The translations under genes and the position numbers were made by a program. Shown one piece after another: positions 57,913 through 64,000 of a stretch of DNA of 64,000 bases. Where the stretch lies: NCBI RefSeq assembly GCF_009914755.1, contig NC_060930.1. One strand, 5' to 3'. Below the pieces are notes generated by a model. It was given only the letters and a program-made list of their open reading frames with translations. It was not told the origin of the DNA and searched no databases. Every line of letters begins with the position of its first letter. Position 1 is the stretch's first letter. The DNA is from the human T2T-CHM13v2.0 reference genome, Homo sapiens.

Positions 57913-59951
57913 ATTTGGTAGTTTACTAATTAATGTGCATCTCAATTTTTTCAGGCCTTTTCCATTTCCTATAGTTGAGGATATGGGGCTCTGCCTCACT
58001 CACATGGATTTATTAACAGCATCTGTCATGTATTTCTTTGTCCTGTTTAGTAGCAAAAGTCACAGGGGTCTCAACCATTCTGATATTTCAATTGGTCTGA
58101 AGAAAGAAGACTTTCTTTCATCCTTCATAATCAATACATGTAGACACAGCAAAGTGGGGACAAGGTCAGGAGAGACTTTGAAACTGGAGATAATAATGAA
58201 TGAAGTTATCCTTTTGCAGATGGAATTTATCCTACTCCAGTGTAGGTGGTAACATATTTCAAGTCTCTATTTAATAGATCAGAATATATGTCCAGGTAGA
58301 AGGGTTTCACTTCAACAAATACATCAAAACTGTTTTCTACAAGATACTGTGTTGGGCTACATGACTAGAATTAAGTGTGTGATAAGTAGTACTAGTAGTA
58401 ACTGGTAGTAAGTGGATCTTAGGTAATAAAAATCAGAGGATCTGACTGGCAATTTGCTACCAGGAGGTTAGTGATCTATATGAAGTGCACAGAAAAGGAA
58501 GCCAAAGGACAAGTATTTGGTAGTTCATATTCACTAGTGTTCAGAAACAGAATACTTTAATTCTAGAAACTCATTACCTATTCTTGAGTTAATTAGAAAC
58601 ACTCCTCCTAAGTAAGATGGGTTATTTCAAGCACTTTGTGACCATCTTTCCCCAATTTATTTTGATGCTATTTTATTTAGTGATCCTCTGACCTTGAATT
58701 TGTTTCTTTCAACAGCCTTGCCTAGTAGATGGAAATGCCCTGAATAGTAATAGGCTTCAGGTCTCAAGTTAAAAACCTCTACCAAGACTTTCCACTTACA
58801 AAATATTTGAACTTTTGCATAAGCTTATTGTACATGGTTGCAAATCCAGTGAGGCTGAGTGAACAGTGATTTTTATCAATGCATTCTATGGAAAAGGAAA
58901 GCAAGAAGGCAGATTGGTTTCTTGAAGTTAGTCAGTTAATCTGTGCCAGAGCTGAAACTGAAAAGCAAGCCTACCTACTCTTTCCATGATACTAATAATC
59001 TAAGAGAATTGATAACAGAAAGATCAAGAGGTGAAAGAATGAGCCCCAGAGAGAAAAAATGTGACGGCTTCCCTCTGACACTTCTCTCAACCTATACTCC
59101 TTCCACTTTTGCTGCCCTGTCTCCTTGTGGTTTCTAGGACTTTGGTTTCTATTCAGGAGCCTGTTGGGTGATTCACATTTCTCTCTTGCACCCTGGAGTC
59201 ATTGGGGATGGCATCAGAGATGAGGGGAAGAGAAACTGTGGCATCTCTAGAGACATGCTTAGAAGAGGGAAGATTCTTCCACGTGGCCTGTAAGAGGAAG
59301 TGACACTCACAGAGATGAATGCCAGAGTGGCCTGGGGAGGCAGATATTTTGAATCTTGAGCTTATTATGTCTTTCTGGATTTTTAGGTTTGGACAAATTG
59401 CTGCATCTGTCTGCCTTGGTATTGTTGTTTGTAATTCTAGAATGAGAATGCAAAAGTGCTAAAAGGAATGTTAGATGCTTTACTTTTAAAAATCCTGAGC
59501 TAGCAAGTAAATATACTGGAAGGAATTGGATTTCTCAGATCATTTTGAGATTTGGCCAATCATTCATTTCATATACTCACCACATTTAATTAACCAGATA
59601 TAGTAATCATTGTAAGCCCTAGAAAAACATTTTCTGCATTCTTTGTTTCTTAATAGTTAATTGATCCAATTCCTTTGGGAGGGTGACATACATGAGACTC
59701 TTTTTGGGACTTAGCTTTCTTTCCAAATTTTAAATATCACATATTATTGTCAAATATGCTATATTAGGAAATTCTGAAAAATAAATCTTTAAAGAAAATT
59801 CTATAATAGAAGGATTGTGGATAAATTCATCATATTTAAGATAATACTTAATTATCAAAACAATTCAGTAACATGTTTTAGGGGAATTTTACATTAACTT
59901 TTGTAGTGATATATAAAAAGTAGAGTAGGAGTTTGAGAAGTGGAATTATTA

Positions 59952-60298
59952 TTTTTATTATTACTTTTGAGTCAGAATTTCACTCTTGTGGCCCAGGCTG
60001 GAGTGCAATAACACAATCTCAGCTCACCACACCTCTGCCTCCTCTCCTGGGTTCAAGCTATTCTCTTGCCTCAGCCTCCCTAGTAGCTGGGACCACAGAC
60101 ACATGCCACCATACCCAGCTAATTTTTGTATTTTTAGAAGAGACGGGGTTTCACCATGTTGGCCAGCCTGGTCTCAAACTCCTAAGCTCAGGTGATTCAC
60201 CTGCCTCGCCTCCCAAAGTGCTGAGATTACAGGCGTGAGCCACCACTACTGGCCAATAAATACCTGCTCCTTACTCTTATTAGTTGTAATATTTGGCC
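59952..60298 (-). mobile_element. AluSq-like element plus 44-nt non-Alu 5' extension, inside an 18-bp TSD
   Basis: Alu body 59952-60254; extension 60255-60298; TSD tgagaagtggaattatta at 59934-59951 and 60299-60316. Confidence 0.93.
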
Positions 60299-63200
60299 TG
60301 AGAAGTGGAATTATTAAAGTGCCACAAAGTCTTAGGCAAAGAGATAAAAAACCTCAGGAAAGTGAATCCCTGCCAGTAACAAGTCAATTATTCTTTTTTG
60401 CTTTAAACTGCCAGTTATTAGATTCCAAATTTATGTAATAGCTTTAGGGAAAATCACATTTGTTTATAGTTATGTATCTTCAGATGCAAAGGTTTGTCAC
60501 CTGGTTTCAGCTTGAAGCGATTCCTTTAAGCTTTGAGCTTTTCTCTTCAGAGCAGCAACAATGTGGAATGTCGAAACTTAATTTTTTTTGTGAAGTGCCA
60601 CGTGCCTCTGGAGCTGCCTAGGTTCCATGACTATGTACTTTGTGTTCTGCCAATTTTGATTCATTTTTATTCCTTATGAAATCTCTGTACCAGAAGATTT
60701 AGGAATAAAAAGACTTGCAACAATAACTTGTTACTGCACAAGAAGCAGAAACTGCTGCTGCCTTACTGTTTTTTTCTTCCCTAATTCAAGAAAGAAAAAT
60801 GTTCTGAAATTGTATACCATAAAGCCTCCAAAGAACTTTTGCCTGTATCAAAACCCAAATTCAAAAGCCACAAACTGGAAAATTAAAACTTTAAAATACC
60901 CTTGACTAGTGTTTGTCGTCTAAACTTAACTGCAGTACATGGACAGGTTTTTAATTAGGAAAGTGTGAAAACAAATAGAATCTTAAGCAAATTTCTTATT
61001 TTGGAATATTGTTGTGATGTTGAGGATGAAAGTTCACAAGAACGTGCCTTAGTTTTGTAAAACTTTTTCTAAGAGAAAAGAATTGGGGAGTGATACATTT
61101 CTATTCATTTCAATATTGTATGTGTGTTTTTAATACCACATGGTAGGCTCATCAATTGCTTGCTGGAAAGCAGATTCTTCTTGCTGTGAATCTGATTCCC
61201 GAGACTCTCTTGATTCATTTAATGGTTTATGCTAGGTAAATATTTCTTGAAATTCTCCTTCTCTTTGAGTGTGGTCAGCAGCAGGCAAACAACAACATAG
61301 TATTATAGTCTAAAAATTTCAGACAGGTAGATGTGATCATATTCAGGAGCCATATACTTTTGGAAAATAATTTATTTGGATGTTTTAGAATAAGGGATGT
61401 TCCATTAATATGATACAATAAAGAGGAAAGATAAGAAACTATTGTTCATATTTCAGTGGCTAGAACCTCAAAATCTTGGAAACGGTAAGAGATGCTCCTA
61501 CTAATCTGCTATTCAATTCTGAGAAATGTCTTTCATGGCACAGTCACACTTGGGAGCACTCAAATGAATTCAACAGAATTGAATTTAAAGCACTTTAGTA
61601 AGTATAGTGGAGGACACAAAAGTTAAGACAATGTACTTACTGTATTCTCCCATAGTGTGCTTTGAATGACACTGACTTAAGAATTCAATAAAAGCACTTA
61701 TATTTATTATTTTTGGACTGCTTTTTCCTTCCTAATAAACTGCAAGCGCTTTGCACAGGAAAGCAGGATCTTGCATATCTGTGTCACCAACAGGTAGTAC
61801 AGTGGCAGACTCATAATAGACACTCGAGTGTTTGTAGAGTAAATGCTAAATTTTATTTTGTAATAGGAAAATAACTGTTATCTTATGTTAATATATTTAA
61901 GTGTAGTTTCTTCTATTAACCAACCTTGCTAGGCCTGCTAGATTGAAATAATAATAAAGAAAAAGAATTCCAGCTCTCCCTTCATTAAACCAAGATATGC
62001 TATGTTTACTAGGGGGTAATATCTAAAAGCAATTATTAATATTTCTCTTTTACTGTGCTCTCATGACTATGAATGTCACCCTAATTGCCCAGAGCCATCT
62101 TTTGGAAGAAAAACTTAGGGTACGGAAATTAAGACTGTAACAAGATAAATGTAAACAAAAAAATACAGGTAGGATGCAGCTTTGGATGCTCAAAGTTAGA
62201 AACATATCCTTTCAAGTCATGTTATTTTTCTGGAAAAGGATTTTCTGATTCCTTTAGCTCTCATGTAGCATACCAAGGGTTTAAATTGGCTTTATAGTCC
62301 GATAGAAGGATTTCATGTAGGGAAAGTAAAAGGAAACTCAGGCTCTTTCCAATGCCTGTGGATTATGGAACAAGTAACAGGCACAAGGAGAAAGAGCTAT
62401 CAGAGCTCATCAGATATATATGTCCAGATTTTACTTTCTATGTGCTTAGCTCACTAAGGGCTGATAAGGAAGGGTCTCATGCTAGCATACAGTGCCCTGG
62501 GTGCCAAGCAAGGGCATCTGCTGATAGGCATGGACTTGGGGTACTCTTGCCTGCACTCCTAATTTTTAACTTGGGAAAGAGACACTTTCTTTAGCTTCCC
62601 CTAAACAACTAGGGCGTGGCAACATCAACTGGAAGGCTCAGGGAGAAATTAAAGGCCTGAGGCATTTTTGTTCTCCCATATTACCCAGAGTTACCATGGG
62701 GCATGAATGCTTAATTGAGGTGTAGAGGGCCAGCCATCAGGTCCTTTATGGCAATGGAGGCTGAGGGTAAATGACCAGGCCAAGGCACTGAATGGAGAAA
62801 GTGTGCAGATTTAGAGGTCTTTAGGGCACAGAAGTTGAGAAGGGACCCAATCAGCCAGGGAGCTTCACCTAGTTCTGACCAAGCCAAGATCACACTGCAC
62901 ATTTCACCAGTCGTGAATTCCACCAGCCATGAATGAGGGCAAGCAGAAAGCAGATGAATAATCCCCAGAGACTACATGGCTGAACTTGACAACTTGTAAG
63001 TGAGAACTTCTAAAGGCTATGTAATCATATGTGGATGAAAACTTTACCTTGTTTCTGCACATCCAAATTGTAATTAAATTCTGCAAACCTAATTATGAGA
63101 TAATAGTTGTTTGTCAAAGTCTGGGAATAGAATGGTCTGGTTTCAACCTGTCAATGATCAGGCAGTATTAGCACAGGGCAAGGTCTCTCTTAATAGCTAT

Positions 63201-63631
63201 TTGGAGCAATGCACTTGCAATTCTTTAATCAAAAACTGTTACTGATAGGAGAGCCTCATCCTGCTAAAGTCCTCTGAAATTTGTCATTCCAGATCAATTA
63301 TAAACAAACTTGAGGATATTTATATTGATGGTTATATTGATGGATATAATGACTGCTTTCAATTCATTTTTGATATCCATGATAATAATGACTTTTAATC
63401 AAAGATGTAAATTCCTAATTAGAAATTCTTGTTCCATTATTTCCTATGCAGCAACAGAAATAACAATTTACTGTATATTAAATTTAATTTACACATATAA
63501 TCTTTTACAATCTCCCAATCACTCTGAGGATAGAAATTATTATCCCAATGTTTGCAACAAACTGACTTTCCAAGATTTCAGGTAAATTGCCAAATATTAC
63601 AACTAGTAAAAGTAAGGAGCAAGTATTTATT

Positions 63632-63940
63632 GGCCAGGAGTGGTGGCTCATGCCTGTAATCCCAGCACTGTGGGAGGCCGAGGTGGGCGGATCACTTGAG
63701 GTCAGGAGTTCAAGACCAGCCTGGCCAACATGACAAAACCTCATCTCTACTAAAAATATAAAAAGTATCCAGGTGTGGTGGCGGGTGCCTGTAATCCCAG
63801 CTACTAGGGAAGATGAGGCAGGAGAATCACTTGAACCTGGGAGGCGGAGGTTGCAGTGAGCCAAGATTGCACCACTGCACTCCAGCCTGGGCGACAAGAG
63901 CAAGACTCCGTCTCCAAAAAAAAAAAAAAAAAAAAAAAAA
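63632..63940 (+). mobile_element. AluSq/Sx-like element inserted in a MIR
   Basis: ggccaggagtgg ... gacaagagc, A25 tail; diverged TSD agtaaggagcaagtatttatt / agtaaggggcgggtattgatt; MIR-like tattatccc...ggtaaattgcc upstream. Confidence 0.95.
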
Positions 63941-64000
63941 GTAAGGGGCGGGTATTGATTAAATAAATCCTAATCATAAGTCAAGGACTTTCCATAAGTG

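What the first reader, a model, noticed from the sequence alone, without database searches (positions are those of the whole stretch)
59934..63960. Local source-daughter Alu pair: the daughter carries 43 nt of the source's 5' flank plus an extra G inside a perfect 18-bp TSD
Seen: the - strand insert between TSDs (tgagaagtggaattatta, 59934-59951 and 60299-60316) reads G + gccaaatattacaactaataagagtaaggagcaggtatttatt + Alu + A-rich tail. The 43 nt match 63589-63631 at 40/43; that stretch lies immediately upstream of the + strand Alu at 63632 and is MIR-like sequence plus that Alu's own 5' TSD, which makes 63632 the original. Both Alus share non-CpG-type departures from consensus (A at position 8 of ggccaggAgtgg / ggccagtAgtgg, and ctactAggga) and the caagag diagnostic. 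The source has T where the daughter has the extra G. Known: a TSD, an A-tail and a TTT/AATA nick site are TPRT hallmarks; an untemplated 5' G is a signature of reverse-transcribed m7G caps; Alus normally start at their Pol III +1 and lack 5' transductions. Inference: either a capped upstream-initiated transcript of this Alu was retrotransposed and landed only 3.3 kb away, or a nascent Alu cDNA switched template onto the neighbouring Alu and ran into its flank. Either route is unusual and would identify a specific ancient source or template.
Basis: partly seen in the sequence, partly recalled or inferred. Interest (0 to 1): 0.85.

Follow-up and report, generated by a model that had tools for sequence, protein, structure and literature searches.

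The report
Alu carrying its neighbour's upstream flank
An old Alu repeat carries, inside its own insertion scars, 43 bases copied from just upstream of another Alu 3.3 kb away, and this fossil more likely records local copying during DNA joining or repair than a true parent-daughter jump.

Summary
The structure is real. A perfect 18-bp target-site duplication (59934-59951 and 60299-60316) encloses, on the minus strand, G, then 43 nt matching 63589-63631 at 40/43, then a full Alu and an A-rich tail. That 43-mer occurs only at these two places in the whole T2T genome. It includes the 63632 Alu's own 5' TSD, so the copying ran from 63632 to 59934.

The two Alu bodies are not demonstrably parent and daughter.
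- Whole-length identity is 77.5%, lower than 67 of 77 randomly sampled Alus show to the 'source'.
- The shared 'private' variants are no more than random Alu pairs share.
- Four of 6 subfamily-diagnostic columns differ.
- The 'daughter' body is about twice as diverged as the 'source'.
- Only the first ~30 nt of the Alu are unusually source-like.

The two Alus lie head to head, and the junction reads TSD-GGCC.

Best reading (0.5): an ordinary Alu insertion whose 5' junction was extended by Alu-homology-guided copying of the neighbour's flank in cis. This happened either at integration or in later break repair.

Main rival (0.3): a genuine RNA 5' transduction. The cap origin of the G cannot be shown. 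Primate orthologues would decide.

The parts
59934..59951 (.). Left copy of the perfect 18-bp target-site duplication of the minus-strand Alu (lies 3' of the element in its own sense)
   Evidence: Identical to 60299-60316
59952..59968 (-). A-rich tail of the minus-strand Alu, AAAAGTAATAATAAAAA (13 A of 17)
59969..60254 (-). Full-length Alu body ('daughter', D). Heavily diverged, with a 5-nt AGGAG duplication. It carries the 3' diagnostics 244T, extra A and 273A of a type found in 17 of 102 sampled Alus.
60255..60297 (-). 43-nt leader, a copy of 63589-63631 at 40/43
60298..60298 (-). Single G between the TSD and the leader; the original locus has T at 63588. With the leader's first GCC it reads GGCC.
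60299..60316 (.). Right copy of the 18-bp TSD (5' of the element in its own sense). It is followed by AAGTG, giving ...ATTATTA/AAG on the plus strand.
60317..63588 (.). Unique AT-rich spacer between the two heads (28-49% GC). The inverted arms are 3291 nt apart. No further homology between the two loci.
63589..63631 (+). Original of the leader, the unique sequence immediately upstream of the plus-strand Alu
63608..63631 (+). 5' TSD of the plus-strand Alu (part of the leader)
   Evidence: 24 nt, 83% identical to 63937-63960
63632..63915 (+). Full-length Alu ('source', S). It has 29 differences from a 77-Alu majority consensus, 13 of them outside CpG transitions.
63916..63940 (+). Pure A-run of 25 (the last 4 may belong to the TSD)
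63937..63960 (+). 3' TSD of the plus-strand Alu

Best explanation
The Alu at 59969-60254 is an ordinary L1-mediated (TPRT) insertion of its own, not a copy of the 63632 Alu. Its 5' junction was extended by copying DNA in cis from the neighbouring, inverted Alu locus.

Proposed steps:
1. A free DNA end lay at the junction between the upstream target (TSD) and the Alu head. It arose either as the natural double-strand-break intermediate of the insertion itself, or from a later break at that boundary.
2. That end belongs to the chromosome fragment that also carries the 63632 Alu, 3.3 kb away.
3. After resection its 3' end folded back, or the Alu-homologous end invaded the neighbour.
4. It was extended on the neighbour's DNA through 63589-63631 into the first tens of bases of that Alu.
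5. The new Alu-sense end then annealed to the Alu sequence on the other end, and the break was sealed.

The product is TSD, G, 43-nt foreign flank, then an Alu whose first ~30 nt may be neighbour-derived and whose remainder is its own, then the tail and TSD.

Shown: the structure, the uniqueness and direction of the copy, the geometry, and the lack of body kinship.
Inferred: the template-switch or foldback route, its timing, and whether the template was DNA or a nascent local RNA.
For: (1) Locality. The only other copy of the leader in 3.1 Gb lies 3291 nt away. A randomly targeted retrotransposition lands within +-3.3 kb with probability 2.1e-6.

(2) Geometry. The two Alus are head to head, and the junction end of D faces S on the same fragment. 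This is the one arrangement of four in which cis foldback synthesis yields leader-then-Alu-head in the observed orientation (inference).

(3) The Alu bodies do not behave as parent and copy.
- S-D identity is 221/285, and 67 of 77 unbiased Alus are closer to S than D is.
- For S positions 176-243, 73 of 77 are closer. For positions 1-30, D is at the top (93.3%, only 4 of 77 as high).
- The repeat finder splits the arms on its own into 90 nt at 92% (leader plus Alu 1-47), then 79% and 74%.

(4) Subfamily. In 102 sampled Alus, 17 carry the linked states 65C/93A/244T/262A/extra A/273A. D has 4 of these 6 and S has only the extra A. That extra A occurs sporadically in 2 of 85 other Alus. S and D differ at 4 of the 6 columns, against a 15% background mismatch (p=0.006).

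(5) Clock. D has 25 private non-CpG changes against 11 in S (p=0.03). Against their best consensus the counts are 29-30 against 13 (p=0.02). This is hard to reconcile with D being younger than S and copied from it.

(6) Junction. The sequence after the TSD reads G+GCC, which equals the first four bases of an Alu. That is expected if a resident Alu's 5' end supplied a 3-nt microhomology.

(7) Precedent, from passages read in papers.
[quoted passage not shown] It states that ORF2p can extend DNA ends on a DNA template, and gives an example of 6271-bp resection with self-annealing.
- PMC8230782 cites Alu-Alu gene conversion acting within about 10 kb and falling with distance.
- PMC5829575 lists localized non-tandem duplications in either orientation, and conversion between repeats.
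Against: - No statistically secure mosaic boundary. The best change point in S-D non-CpG mismatches is after Alu position 56 (6/86 against 32/188), with permutation p=0.33. The leader (3/43) against the Alu body (35/231) gives Fisher p=0.23.
- The source-like first 30 nt are only top-5%. The cumulative likelihood peak there is not significant, since 12-14% of random Alus do as well.
- D shares 8A, 175A and the extra A with S and ranks 4th of 78. This is what a true copy made soon after S inserted would also show.
- A perfect 18/18 TSD next to a body with 12.5% non-CpG divergence is unexpected if D is an old resident element (P about 0.02).
- If the event happened during D's own insertion, D must be younger than S. 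The divergence counts argue against that.
- The GGCC reading was noticed post hoc.
- A single extra G with no microhomology and a regular TSD is also the signature reported for capped full-length RNA insertions (PMC11702581).
- No case of an Alu capturing a neighbouring Alu's flank was found in print.
Confidence: 0.5

Rival explanations
1. Genuine RNA-mediated 5' transduction. An RNA covering 63589 through the 63632 Alu and its A-tail was reverse-transcribed by L1 ORF2p primed on the A-tail, and inserted at 59951/60317. The RNA was either a capped transcript starting at 63589, or a longer host transcript whose cDNA stopped there. The whole 59969-60254 Alu is then a copy of the 63632 Alu.
For: - Perfect 18-bp TSD, A-rich tail and an AT-rich endonuclease-like site.
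- The leader is contiguous with the Alu exactly as at the source.
- A single extra G without microhomology matches the junction type described for capped full-length insertions (PMC11702581).
- D shares 8A (6/77), 175A (3/77) and the extra A (17/77) with S, ranking 4th of 78.
- Leader and body divergence are not significantly different (p=0.23), and there is no significant change point (p=0.33).
- The Halabian et al. preprint (10.1101/2024.04.29.591526; first part of the text and passages read) leaves open rare Alu transductions through Pol II co-transcripts or older subfamilies.
Against: - Landing 3.3 kb from the source has probability about 2e-6 under random targeting.
- D is less like S than 67 of 77 random Alus.
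- Four of 6 subfamily-diagnostic columns differ (p=0.006).
- D, which must be the younger, has about twice S's private changes (p=0.02-0.03).
- 0 of S's 11 non-CpG private substitutions are in D.
- No gene or functional element is annotated in the window (hub annotation). The 300 nt upstream of 63589 are 28-30% GC.
- The same preprint confirmed no transduction among 118,489 AluY. It looked at 3' transductions only.
Confidence: 0.3
2. A purely DNA-level local inverted duplication by replication template switching (FoSTeS/MMBIR). A fork left the 59951 region, copied the neighbour from its T-run through the Alu to 63589, and returned 18 nt back. This created a TSD-like duplication that mimics TPRT.
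For: - Locality and inverted orientation are natural for this route.
- Localized non-tandem duplications in inverted orientation are a recurrent human rearrangement pattern (PMC5829575).
- The AT-rich junction could supply microhomology to the T-run.
Against: - The copied block would have to begin by coincidence inside the neighbour's A-tail and end 43 nt past its head.
- An 18-bp duplication, an A-rich tail and an endonuclease-like site together are the normal TPRT picture.
- It predicts an S-derived body and so meets the same body-kinship, subfamily and clock objections as the RNA model.
Confidence: 0.1
3. A reverse-transcriptase template switch between two RNAs in trans. ORF2p copied an unrelated Alu RNA part-way, then jumped by Alu homology onto a free transcript containing the 63632 Alu and its upstream flank.
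For: - It explains a mosaic body together with TPRT hallmarks.
- Insertions built from two RNA templates were seen experimentally (9 cases; PMC11702581).
Against: - With a diffusible RNA the 3.3-kb proximity and the head-to-head geometry are again coincidences.
- It needs D to be younger than S.
Confidence: 0.05

Closest known systems
5' transduction by non-LTR retrotransposons (described for L1 and SVA)
   Same: Unique sequence from immediately upstream of another copy sits between the 5' TSD and the element's first base. An A-tail and a TSD are present.
   Different: - Not described for Alu. The one systematic Alu study I found confirmed no transduction among 118,489 AluY, and it examined 3' flanks only (10.1101/2024.04.29.591526).
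- Here the element body is not demonstrably derived from the putative source.
- The two loci are only 3.3 kb apart.
Templated genomic-DNA insertions at L1-mediated insertion junctions (PMC11702581)
   Same: [quoted passage not shown]
- The authors attribute it to processing and extension of the reciprocal DNA end before ligation.
- Long resection and self-annealing are documented (passages read, supplementary figures not seen).
   Different: - Those were de novo events in cultured cells over-expressing L1, not a fixed ancient Alu.
- No role for Alu-Alu homology in choosing or resolving the template was described in the passages I read.
Gene conversion or sequence exchange between neighbouring Alus
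   Same: Local, DNA-level, homology-guided exchange, reported to act within about 10 kb and to fall with distance (PMC8230782 citing an earlier genome-wide study). The first ~30 nt of D are unusually S-like.
   Different: Classical conversion stays inside the homologous tract. Here synthesis ran 43 nt beyond the Alu into unique flank, so it had to be completed by end joining or microhomology.
Microhomology-mediated template switching (FoSTeS/MMBIR) and localized non-tandem duplications
   Same: A short templated copy of nearby sequence in inverted orientation, with a possible 3-nt microhomology (GCC) at the return junction (PMC5829575; listing only for the papers).
   Different: The recipient site carries the complete signature of a retrotransposon insertion. 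The copied tract abuts an Alu head exactly.

Membership tests
L1-mediated (TPRT) Alu insertion: the 59934-60316 element | Target-site duplication of about 7-20 bp flanking the insert | tested here: met
   18/18 identical copies
L1-mediated (TPRT) Alu insertion: the 59934-60316 element | A-rich tail at the 3' end, abutting the TSD | tested here: met
   17-nt tail with 13 A. It is short and impure.
L1-mediated (TPRT) Alu insertion: the 59934-60316 element | Insertion at a TT/AAAA-like endonuclease site (consensus as quoted in PMC11702581) | tested here: inconclusive
   CACTTT/AATAAT (17-nt TSD reading) or CTT/TAATAA (18-nt reading). It is AT-rich and similar, but not exact.
5' transduction (source-daughter retrotransposition) | Extra sequence inside the TSD that matches the immediate 5' flank of one other copy, and is unique in the genome | tested here: met
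   40/43 match. It occurs at only 2 places in 3.1 Gb.
5' transduction (source-daughter retrotransposition) | The element body descends from that same source, with shared private variants along its length and the same subfamily | tested here: not met
   - Sharing is no more than random pairs show.
- 67 of 77 random Alus are closer to S.
- 4 of 6 diagnostic columns differ.
- Power is limited if the copy was made soon after S inserted.
5' transduction (source-daughter retrotransposition) | The daughter is younger than the source | tested here: not met
   D has 48 differences from consensus against 29 for S. Non-CpG counts are 29-30 against 13 (p=0.02). The perfect TSD points the other way. Orthologues were not available.
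5' transduction (source-daughter retrotransposition) | The 5' end coincides with a transcription start | not testable with these tools
   No expression data are held. No annotated element (hub annotation). Upstream region is AT-rich.
Cap-derived untemplated G | One extra G at the 5' junction, absent from the template, with no microhomology | tested here: inconclusive
   G at 60298 against T at 63588. It could equally be a resident Alu's first G (GGCC), a filler base, or a T>G substitution.
Cis templated extension / foldback or SDSA-type repair | The template lies nearby on the same molecule, in the orientation that foldback synthesis requires | tested here: met
   3291 nt apart and head to head, with D's 5' junction facing S
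Cis templated extension / foldback or SDSA-type repair | A mosaic product: a neighbour-derived tract followed by resident sequence | tested here: inconclusive
   Leader plus Alu 1-47 is 92% identical, against 79% and 74% for the rest. Positions 1-30 are in the top 5%. The change point has p=0.33.
Cis templated extension / foldback or SDSA-type repair | Microhomology or a short filler at the junction | tested here: inconclusive
   GCC (3 nt) if the G is the resident Alu's first base; otherwise a 1-nt filler

The most novel reading that the evidence does not exclude
The leader marks a real Alu 5' transduction made from a nascent, chromatin-tethered transcript of the neighbouring locus. L1 ORF2p nicked DNA 3.3 kb away and used that transcript on the spot. 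This would be the first documented Alu 5' transduction, and it would be evidence that L1-mediated trans-mobilisation can be biased towards RNAs being made next to the nick.
Probability: 0.12. Interest if true: 0.75.

Novelty: new variant of a known kind. Interest (0 to 1): 0.45.

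Why it matters
Alu source elements are almost impossible to trace, because Alus normally carry no flank. A flank-tagged Alu would therefore be valuable.

This case shows that such a tag need not mean parentage. The tag is certainly copied from the neighbour, yet the Alu body attached to it does not look like the neighbour's offspring.

If the cis-templating reading is right, this locus is a germline-fixed fossil of junction processing. That processing has so far been seen mainly in cells over-expressing L1 (PMC11702581). It is also a caution for pipelines that would call transductions or source elements from flank matches alone.

If the RNA reading is right, it is a rare Alu 5' transduction. 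A systematic survey of AluY 3' flanks found no transduction at all.

Either way it is a single neutral event in a gene desert.

Tried and rejected
- Chance or subfamily feature. Rejected: the leader has 0 matches in 100 shuffles and exactly two places genome-wide.
- Reverse direction (the 59934 locus as the original). Rejected: there the leader lies inside the TSDs, while at 63589 it continues into unique sequence and contains that Alu's TSD.
- Other daughters. None found. In one search only 40 of 125 candidates were scored, and none of them covered the leader apart from the known copy.
- A diverged third Alu as the true parent of D's body. The best 40 of 8653 candidates are only 83-87% identical, and S is not among them. 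This is uninformative because few candidates were scored.
- An apparent close relative, L031_7963, turned out to be a diverged Alu sharing consensus states.
- Copy-of-S likelihood scan and change-point test. Both non-significant.
- Mutation spectrum of D's private changes. Read, about two thirds are transitions, with no editing signature. Not tested formally.
- A splice-site, Pol III or TATA explanation for a start at 63589. CAG/GTAAAT lies 7 nt upstream and does not coincide. Inspection only.
- MIR identity of the leader. Not testable here.
- Not available: primate orthologues, a repeat library and expression data.
The Alu sample therefore stayed at 77 unbiased copies plus 25 that are biased in their first 29 nt.
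- Supplementary figures S9 and S10 of PMC11702581, which hold the details of the templated insertions, were not seen.

Full report
WHAT IS THERE

On the plus strand, 59934-59951 and 60299-60316 are identical 18-mers, TGAGAAGTGGAATTATTA (family D3). The 347 nt between them read, on the minus strand:
- a G (60298);
- 43 nt (60255-60297);
- a full-length Alu (59969-60254);
- the tail AAAAGTAATAATAAAAA (59952-59968).

The 43 nt match 63589-63631 at 40/43. That stretch lies immediately upstream of a plus-strand Alu (63632-63915), which is followed by a run of 25 A (63916-63940). The plus-strand Alu has its own degenerate target-site duplication, 63608-63631 against 63937-63960 (24 nt, 83%). The last 21-24 nt of the leader are therefore that Alu's 5' TSD. 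At 63588 the original has T where the copy has G.

I call the 63632 Alu S and the 59969-60254 Alu D.

THE MATCH IS NOT CHANCE AND NOT A FAMILY FEATURE

- With up to 3 mismatches the 43-mer has two matches in the window, and none of 100 shuffles gave two.
- In the 3.1-Gb assembly it has exactly these two places, with 0 for the reversed control.
- A 72-nt and a 192-nt query of the flank without any Alu found only the locus itself and the D leader at E<=10.
- Homology stops at 63589.
- No other 'daughter' exists at this sensitivity. In one search only 40 of 125 candidates were scored, and all other hits covered only Alu sequence.

The direction is certain. At D the leader lies inside the TSDs. 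At S it is continuous with unique sequence and includes S's own TSD.

ARE THE TWO ALU BODIES PARENT AND COPY?

I sampled 77 full-length Alus without bias: 20 arbitrary 10-kb stretches plus the window. I added 25 more from loci that are biased only in their first 29 nt. Majority states with CpG sites restored served as the reference. They were never printed.

Differences from the reference:
- S differs at 29 of 280 positions: 16 CpG transitions, 2 other changes at CpG sites and 11 non-CpG changes.
- D differs at 48: 18 CpG transitions, 4 other changes at CpG sites, 25 non-CpG changes and one gap.
- They share 8 derived states. Six are common CpG transitions. The rarer two are position 8 C>A (6 of 77 others) and position 175 C>A (3 of 77).
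- None of S's 11 non-CpG substitutions is in D.

Tests of specific kinship:
- 9.7% of 3081 random Alu pairs share at least two rare variants. D ranks 15th of 78 for kinship to S, and S ranks 36th of 78 for kinship to D.
- The test was then restricted to S's 14 features that are not CpG transitions, and the extra A that gives 'caagag' was added. D then shares 3 of the 14, ranks 4th of 78, and 14.7% of 5852 ordered pairs score as high.
- A copy-with-noise likelihood never rises above +2 log units. The peak is at S position 30, and 12-14% of random Alus reach it. Over the full length 88% of random Alus fit 'copy of S' better than D does.

Identity to S by segment:

| S positions | D identity to S | Sampled Alus at least as close to S (of 77) |
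|---|---|---|
| 1-30 | 93.3% | 4 |
| 48-100 | 81.1% | 56 |
| 176-243 | 66.7% | 73 |
| 201-281 | 68.2% | 76 |
| whole (1-281) | 77.5% | 67 |

The repeat finder independently reports the inverted arms as 90 nt at 92% (leader plus Alu 1-47), then 165 nt at 79% and 82 nt at 74%.

The gradient is suggestive but not secure. The best change point is after Alu position 56 (6/86 against 32/188 non-CpG mismatches), with permutation p=0.33. The leader at 3/43 against the body at 35/231 gives p=0.23.

SUBFAMILY AND CLOCK

Among the 102 sampled Alus, 17 carry the extra A together with A at position 273. That group also tends to have 65C, 93A, 244T and 262A. I recall this type as AluSz/Sq-like. The label is from memory and comes from no call.

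- D has C, G, T, C, extra A, A at these six columns, so 4 of 6 are group states.
- S has T, G, C, G, extra A, G, so only the extra A is a group state. That extra A occurs sporadically in 2 of the 85 other Alus.
- S and D differ at 4 of the 6 diagnostic columns, where the background non-CpG mismatch is 15% (p=0.006). One of the four columns is a CpG site.
- The combination 244T + extra A + 273A is present in 14 of 102 sampled Alus.

Divergence counts:
- D's private changes outnumber S's: 25 against 11 non-CpG (p=0.03), and 40 against 21 overall (p=0.02).
- Against the better-fitting consensus, D has 29-30 non-CpG differences and S has 13.
- The 17 group members have 8-21, and the six other window Alus have 13-20.

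A copy of S must be younger than S, so this counts against D being one. D's flanks point the other way. The TSD is 0/36 changed and the leader has at most 2 D-lineage changes (2/79 against 29/232, p=0.008). A perfect TSD has P of about 0.02 at D's body rate. D's body is therefore more diverged than its own flanks under every model, and I could not explain this. Read, about two thirds of its private changes are transitions. Many cluster in the 3' third, together with a 5-nt AGGAG duplication.

GEOMETRY AND JUNCTION

The two Alus are head to head with 3291 nt between the arms. D's 5' junction (TSD-G-leader) is on the side facing S. The chromosome fragment that was joined to D's head is therefore the fragment that carries S.

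Suppose the 3' end of that fragment folds back on its own resected strand and is extended. It would then synthesise exactly 63589 onward, that is the leader and then the head of S, in the orientation observed. Only this one of the four possible arrangements allows that (inference).

The bases after the TSD read G+GCC, the first four bases of an Alu. This fits a resident Alu 5' end pairing through GCC. I noticed it after the fact, so I give it little weight.

MECHANISM

A diffusible RNA inserted at random lands within +-3.3 kb of its origin with probability 2.1e-6. The body, subfamily, clock and geometry evidence point the same way. I therefore favour (0.5) a local, Alu-homology-guided, templated extension at D's 5' junction. 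D is an ordinary TPRT insertion. The DNA end at its head was extended on the neighbouring locus through the 43 nt into S's head, and was then resolved by annealing to Alu sequence on the other end. The end was either the integration intermediate or a later break.

I cannot separate these two timings. Integration-time capture makes the break position natural, but it needs D to be younger than S. Later repair allows an older D and explains GGCC, but it sits badly with the perfect TSD.

Precedents seen in print:
[quoted passage not shown] It notes that ORF2p can extend DNA ends on a DNA template, and gives an example of 6271-bp resection with self-annealing.
- PMC8230782 (passages) cites gene conversion among neighbouring Alus within about 10 kb.
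- PMC5829575 (passages) catalogues localized non-tandem duplications in either orientation and conversion between repeats.

RIVALS

It remains viable at 0.3.
- For it: the TSD, the tail, a single extra G without microhomology (the junction type PMC11702581 describes for capped full-length insertions), the three shared variants, and the non-significant mosaic tests.
- Against it: it must absorb the 2e-6 locality, the subfamily mismatch and the reversed clock.
- No promoter evidence exists: no annotation, and 28-30% GC upstream.

A wholly DNA-level inverted duplication that mimics TPRT gets 0.1. A trans RNA-RNA template switch gets 0.05.

COMPARISON WITH WHAT IS KNOWN

5' transductions are described for L1 and SVA. 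For Alu I found no report in searches. Halabian et al. (bioRxiv 10.1101/2024.04.29.591526; first part of the text and passages read) confirmed no transduction among 118,489 full-length AluY in this same assembly. They examined 3' flanks only, and they note that rare events through Pol II co-transcripts or older subfamilies are not excluded.

Filed as a 5' transduction, this element meets the flank criterion. It fails the body-descent and age criteria as far as they can be tested here. Filed as a templated junction insertion, it meets the locality and orientation criteria, while mosaicism and microhomology are inconclusive.

VERDICT

The 'source-daughter Alu pair' and 'cap G' readings are not established. 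The most likely story is flank capture from a neighbouring Alu by local template switching. That makes it a new variant of known junction-processing or gene-conversion phenomena. It is interesting to mobile-DNA specialists and a useful caution for source tracing, but it is a single neutral ancient event. Interest 0.45.

Not available here: primate orthologues, a repeat library and expression data. These would be decisive.

Noticed in passing
window 59969-60254 with 59934-59951 / 60299-60316: The minus-strand Alu body is hyper-diverged. It has 29-30 non-CpG differences, against 8-21 in 17 same-type Alus and 13-20 in the window's other Alus. It also has a 5-nt AGGAG duplication and a run of C>T changes near positions 237-244. 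Yet its 18-bp TSD is perfect and its leader is 93% intact. No model explains this contrast.
   Followed up: partly
window 63916-63940: The plus-strand Alu keeps a pure run of 25 A although its body is about 10% diverged from consensus. The supposedly younger copy has a short, impure 17-nt tail.
   Followed up: no
window 63579-63587: CAG/GTAAAT, a splice-donor-like (and TTTCAG/G acceptor-like) motif, lies 7 nt upstream of the point where the copied leader starts. It does not coincide with the leader's end.
   Followed up: no
window 59952-59968 vs 63933-63944: The copy's tail begins AAAAGTAA, the same 8-mer as the junction of the other Alu's A-run with its 3' TSD (AAAAGTAAGG). It is too short and A-rich to interpret.
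   Followed up: no
L008 and L009 (G000 C22:21.97 Mb and 21.79 Mb): These two loci carry the same two Alus in mirrored positions, with near-identical scores against the query. They are probably a segmental duplication on that chromosome. One was dropped from the Alu sample.
   Followed up: no
window 63632-63915: The plus-strand Alu has the extra A ('caagag') without the linked 244T/262A/273A states that accompany it in 14-17 of the 19 sampled carriers. This is either a sporadic duplication of an A or a trace of short-tract exchange with its neighbour.
   Followed up: partly
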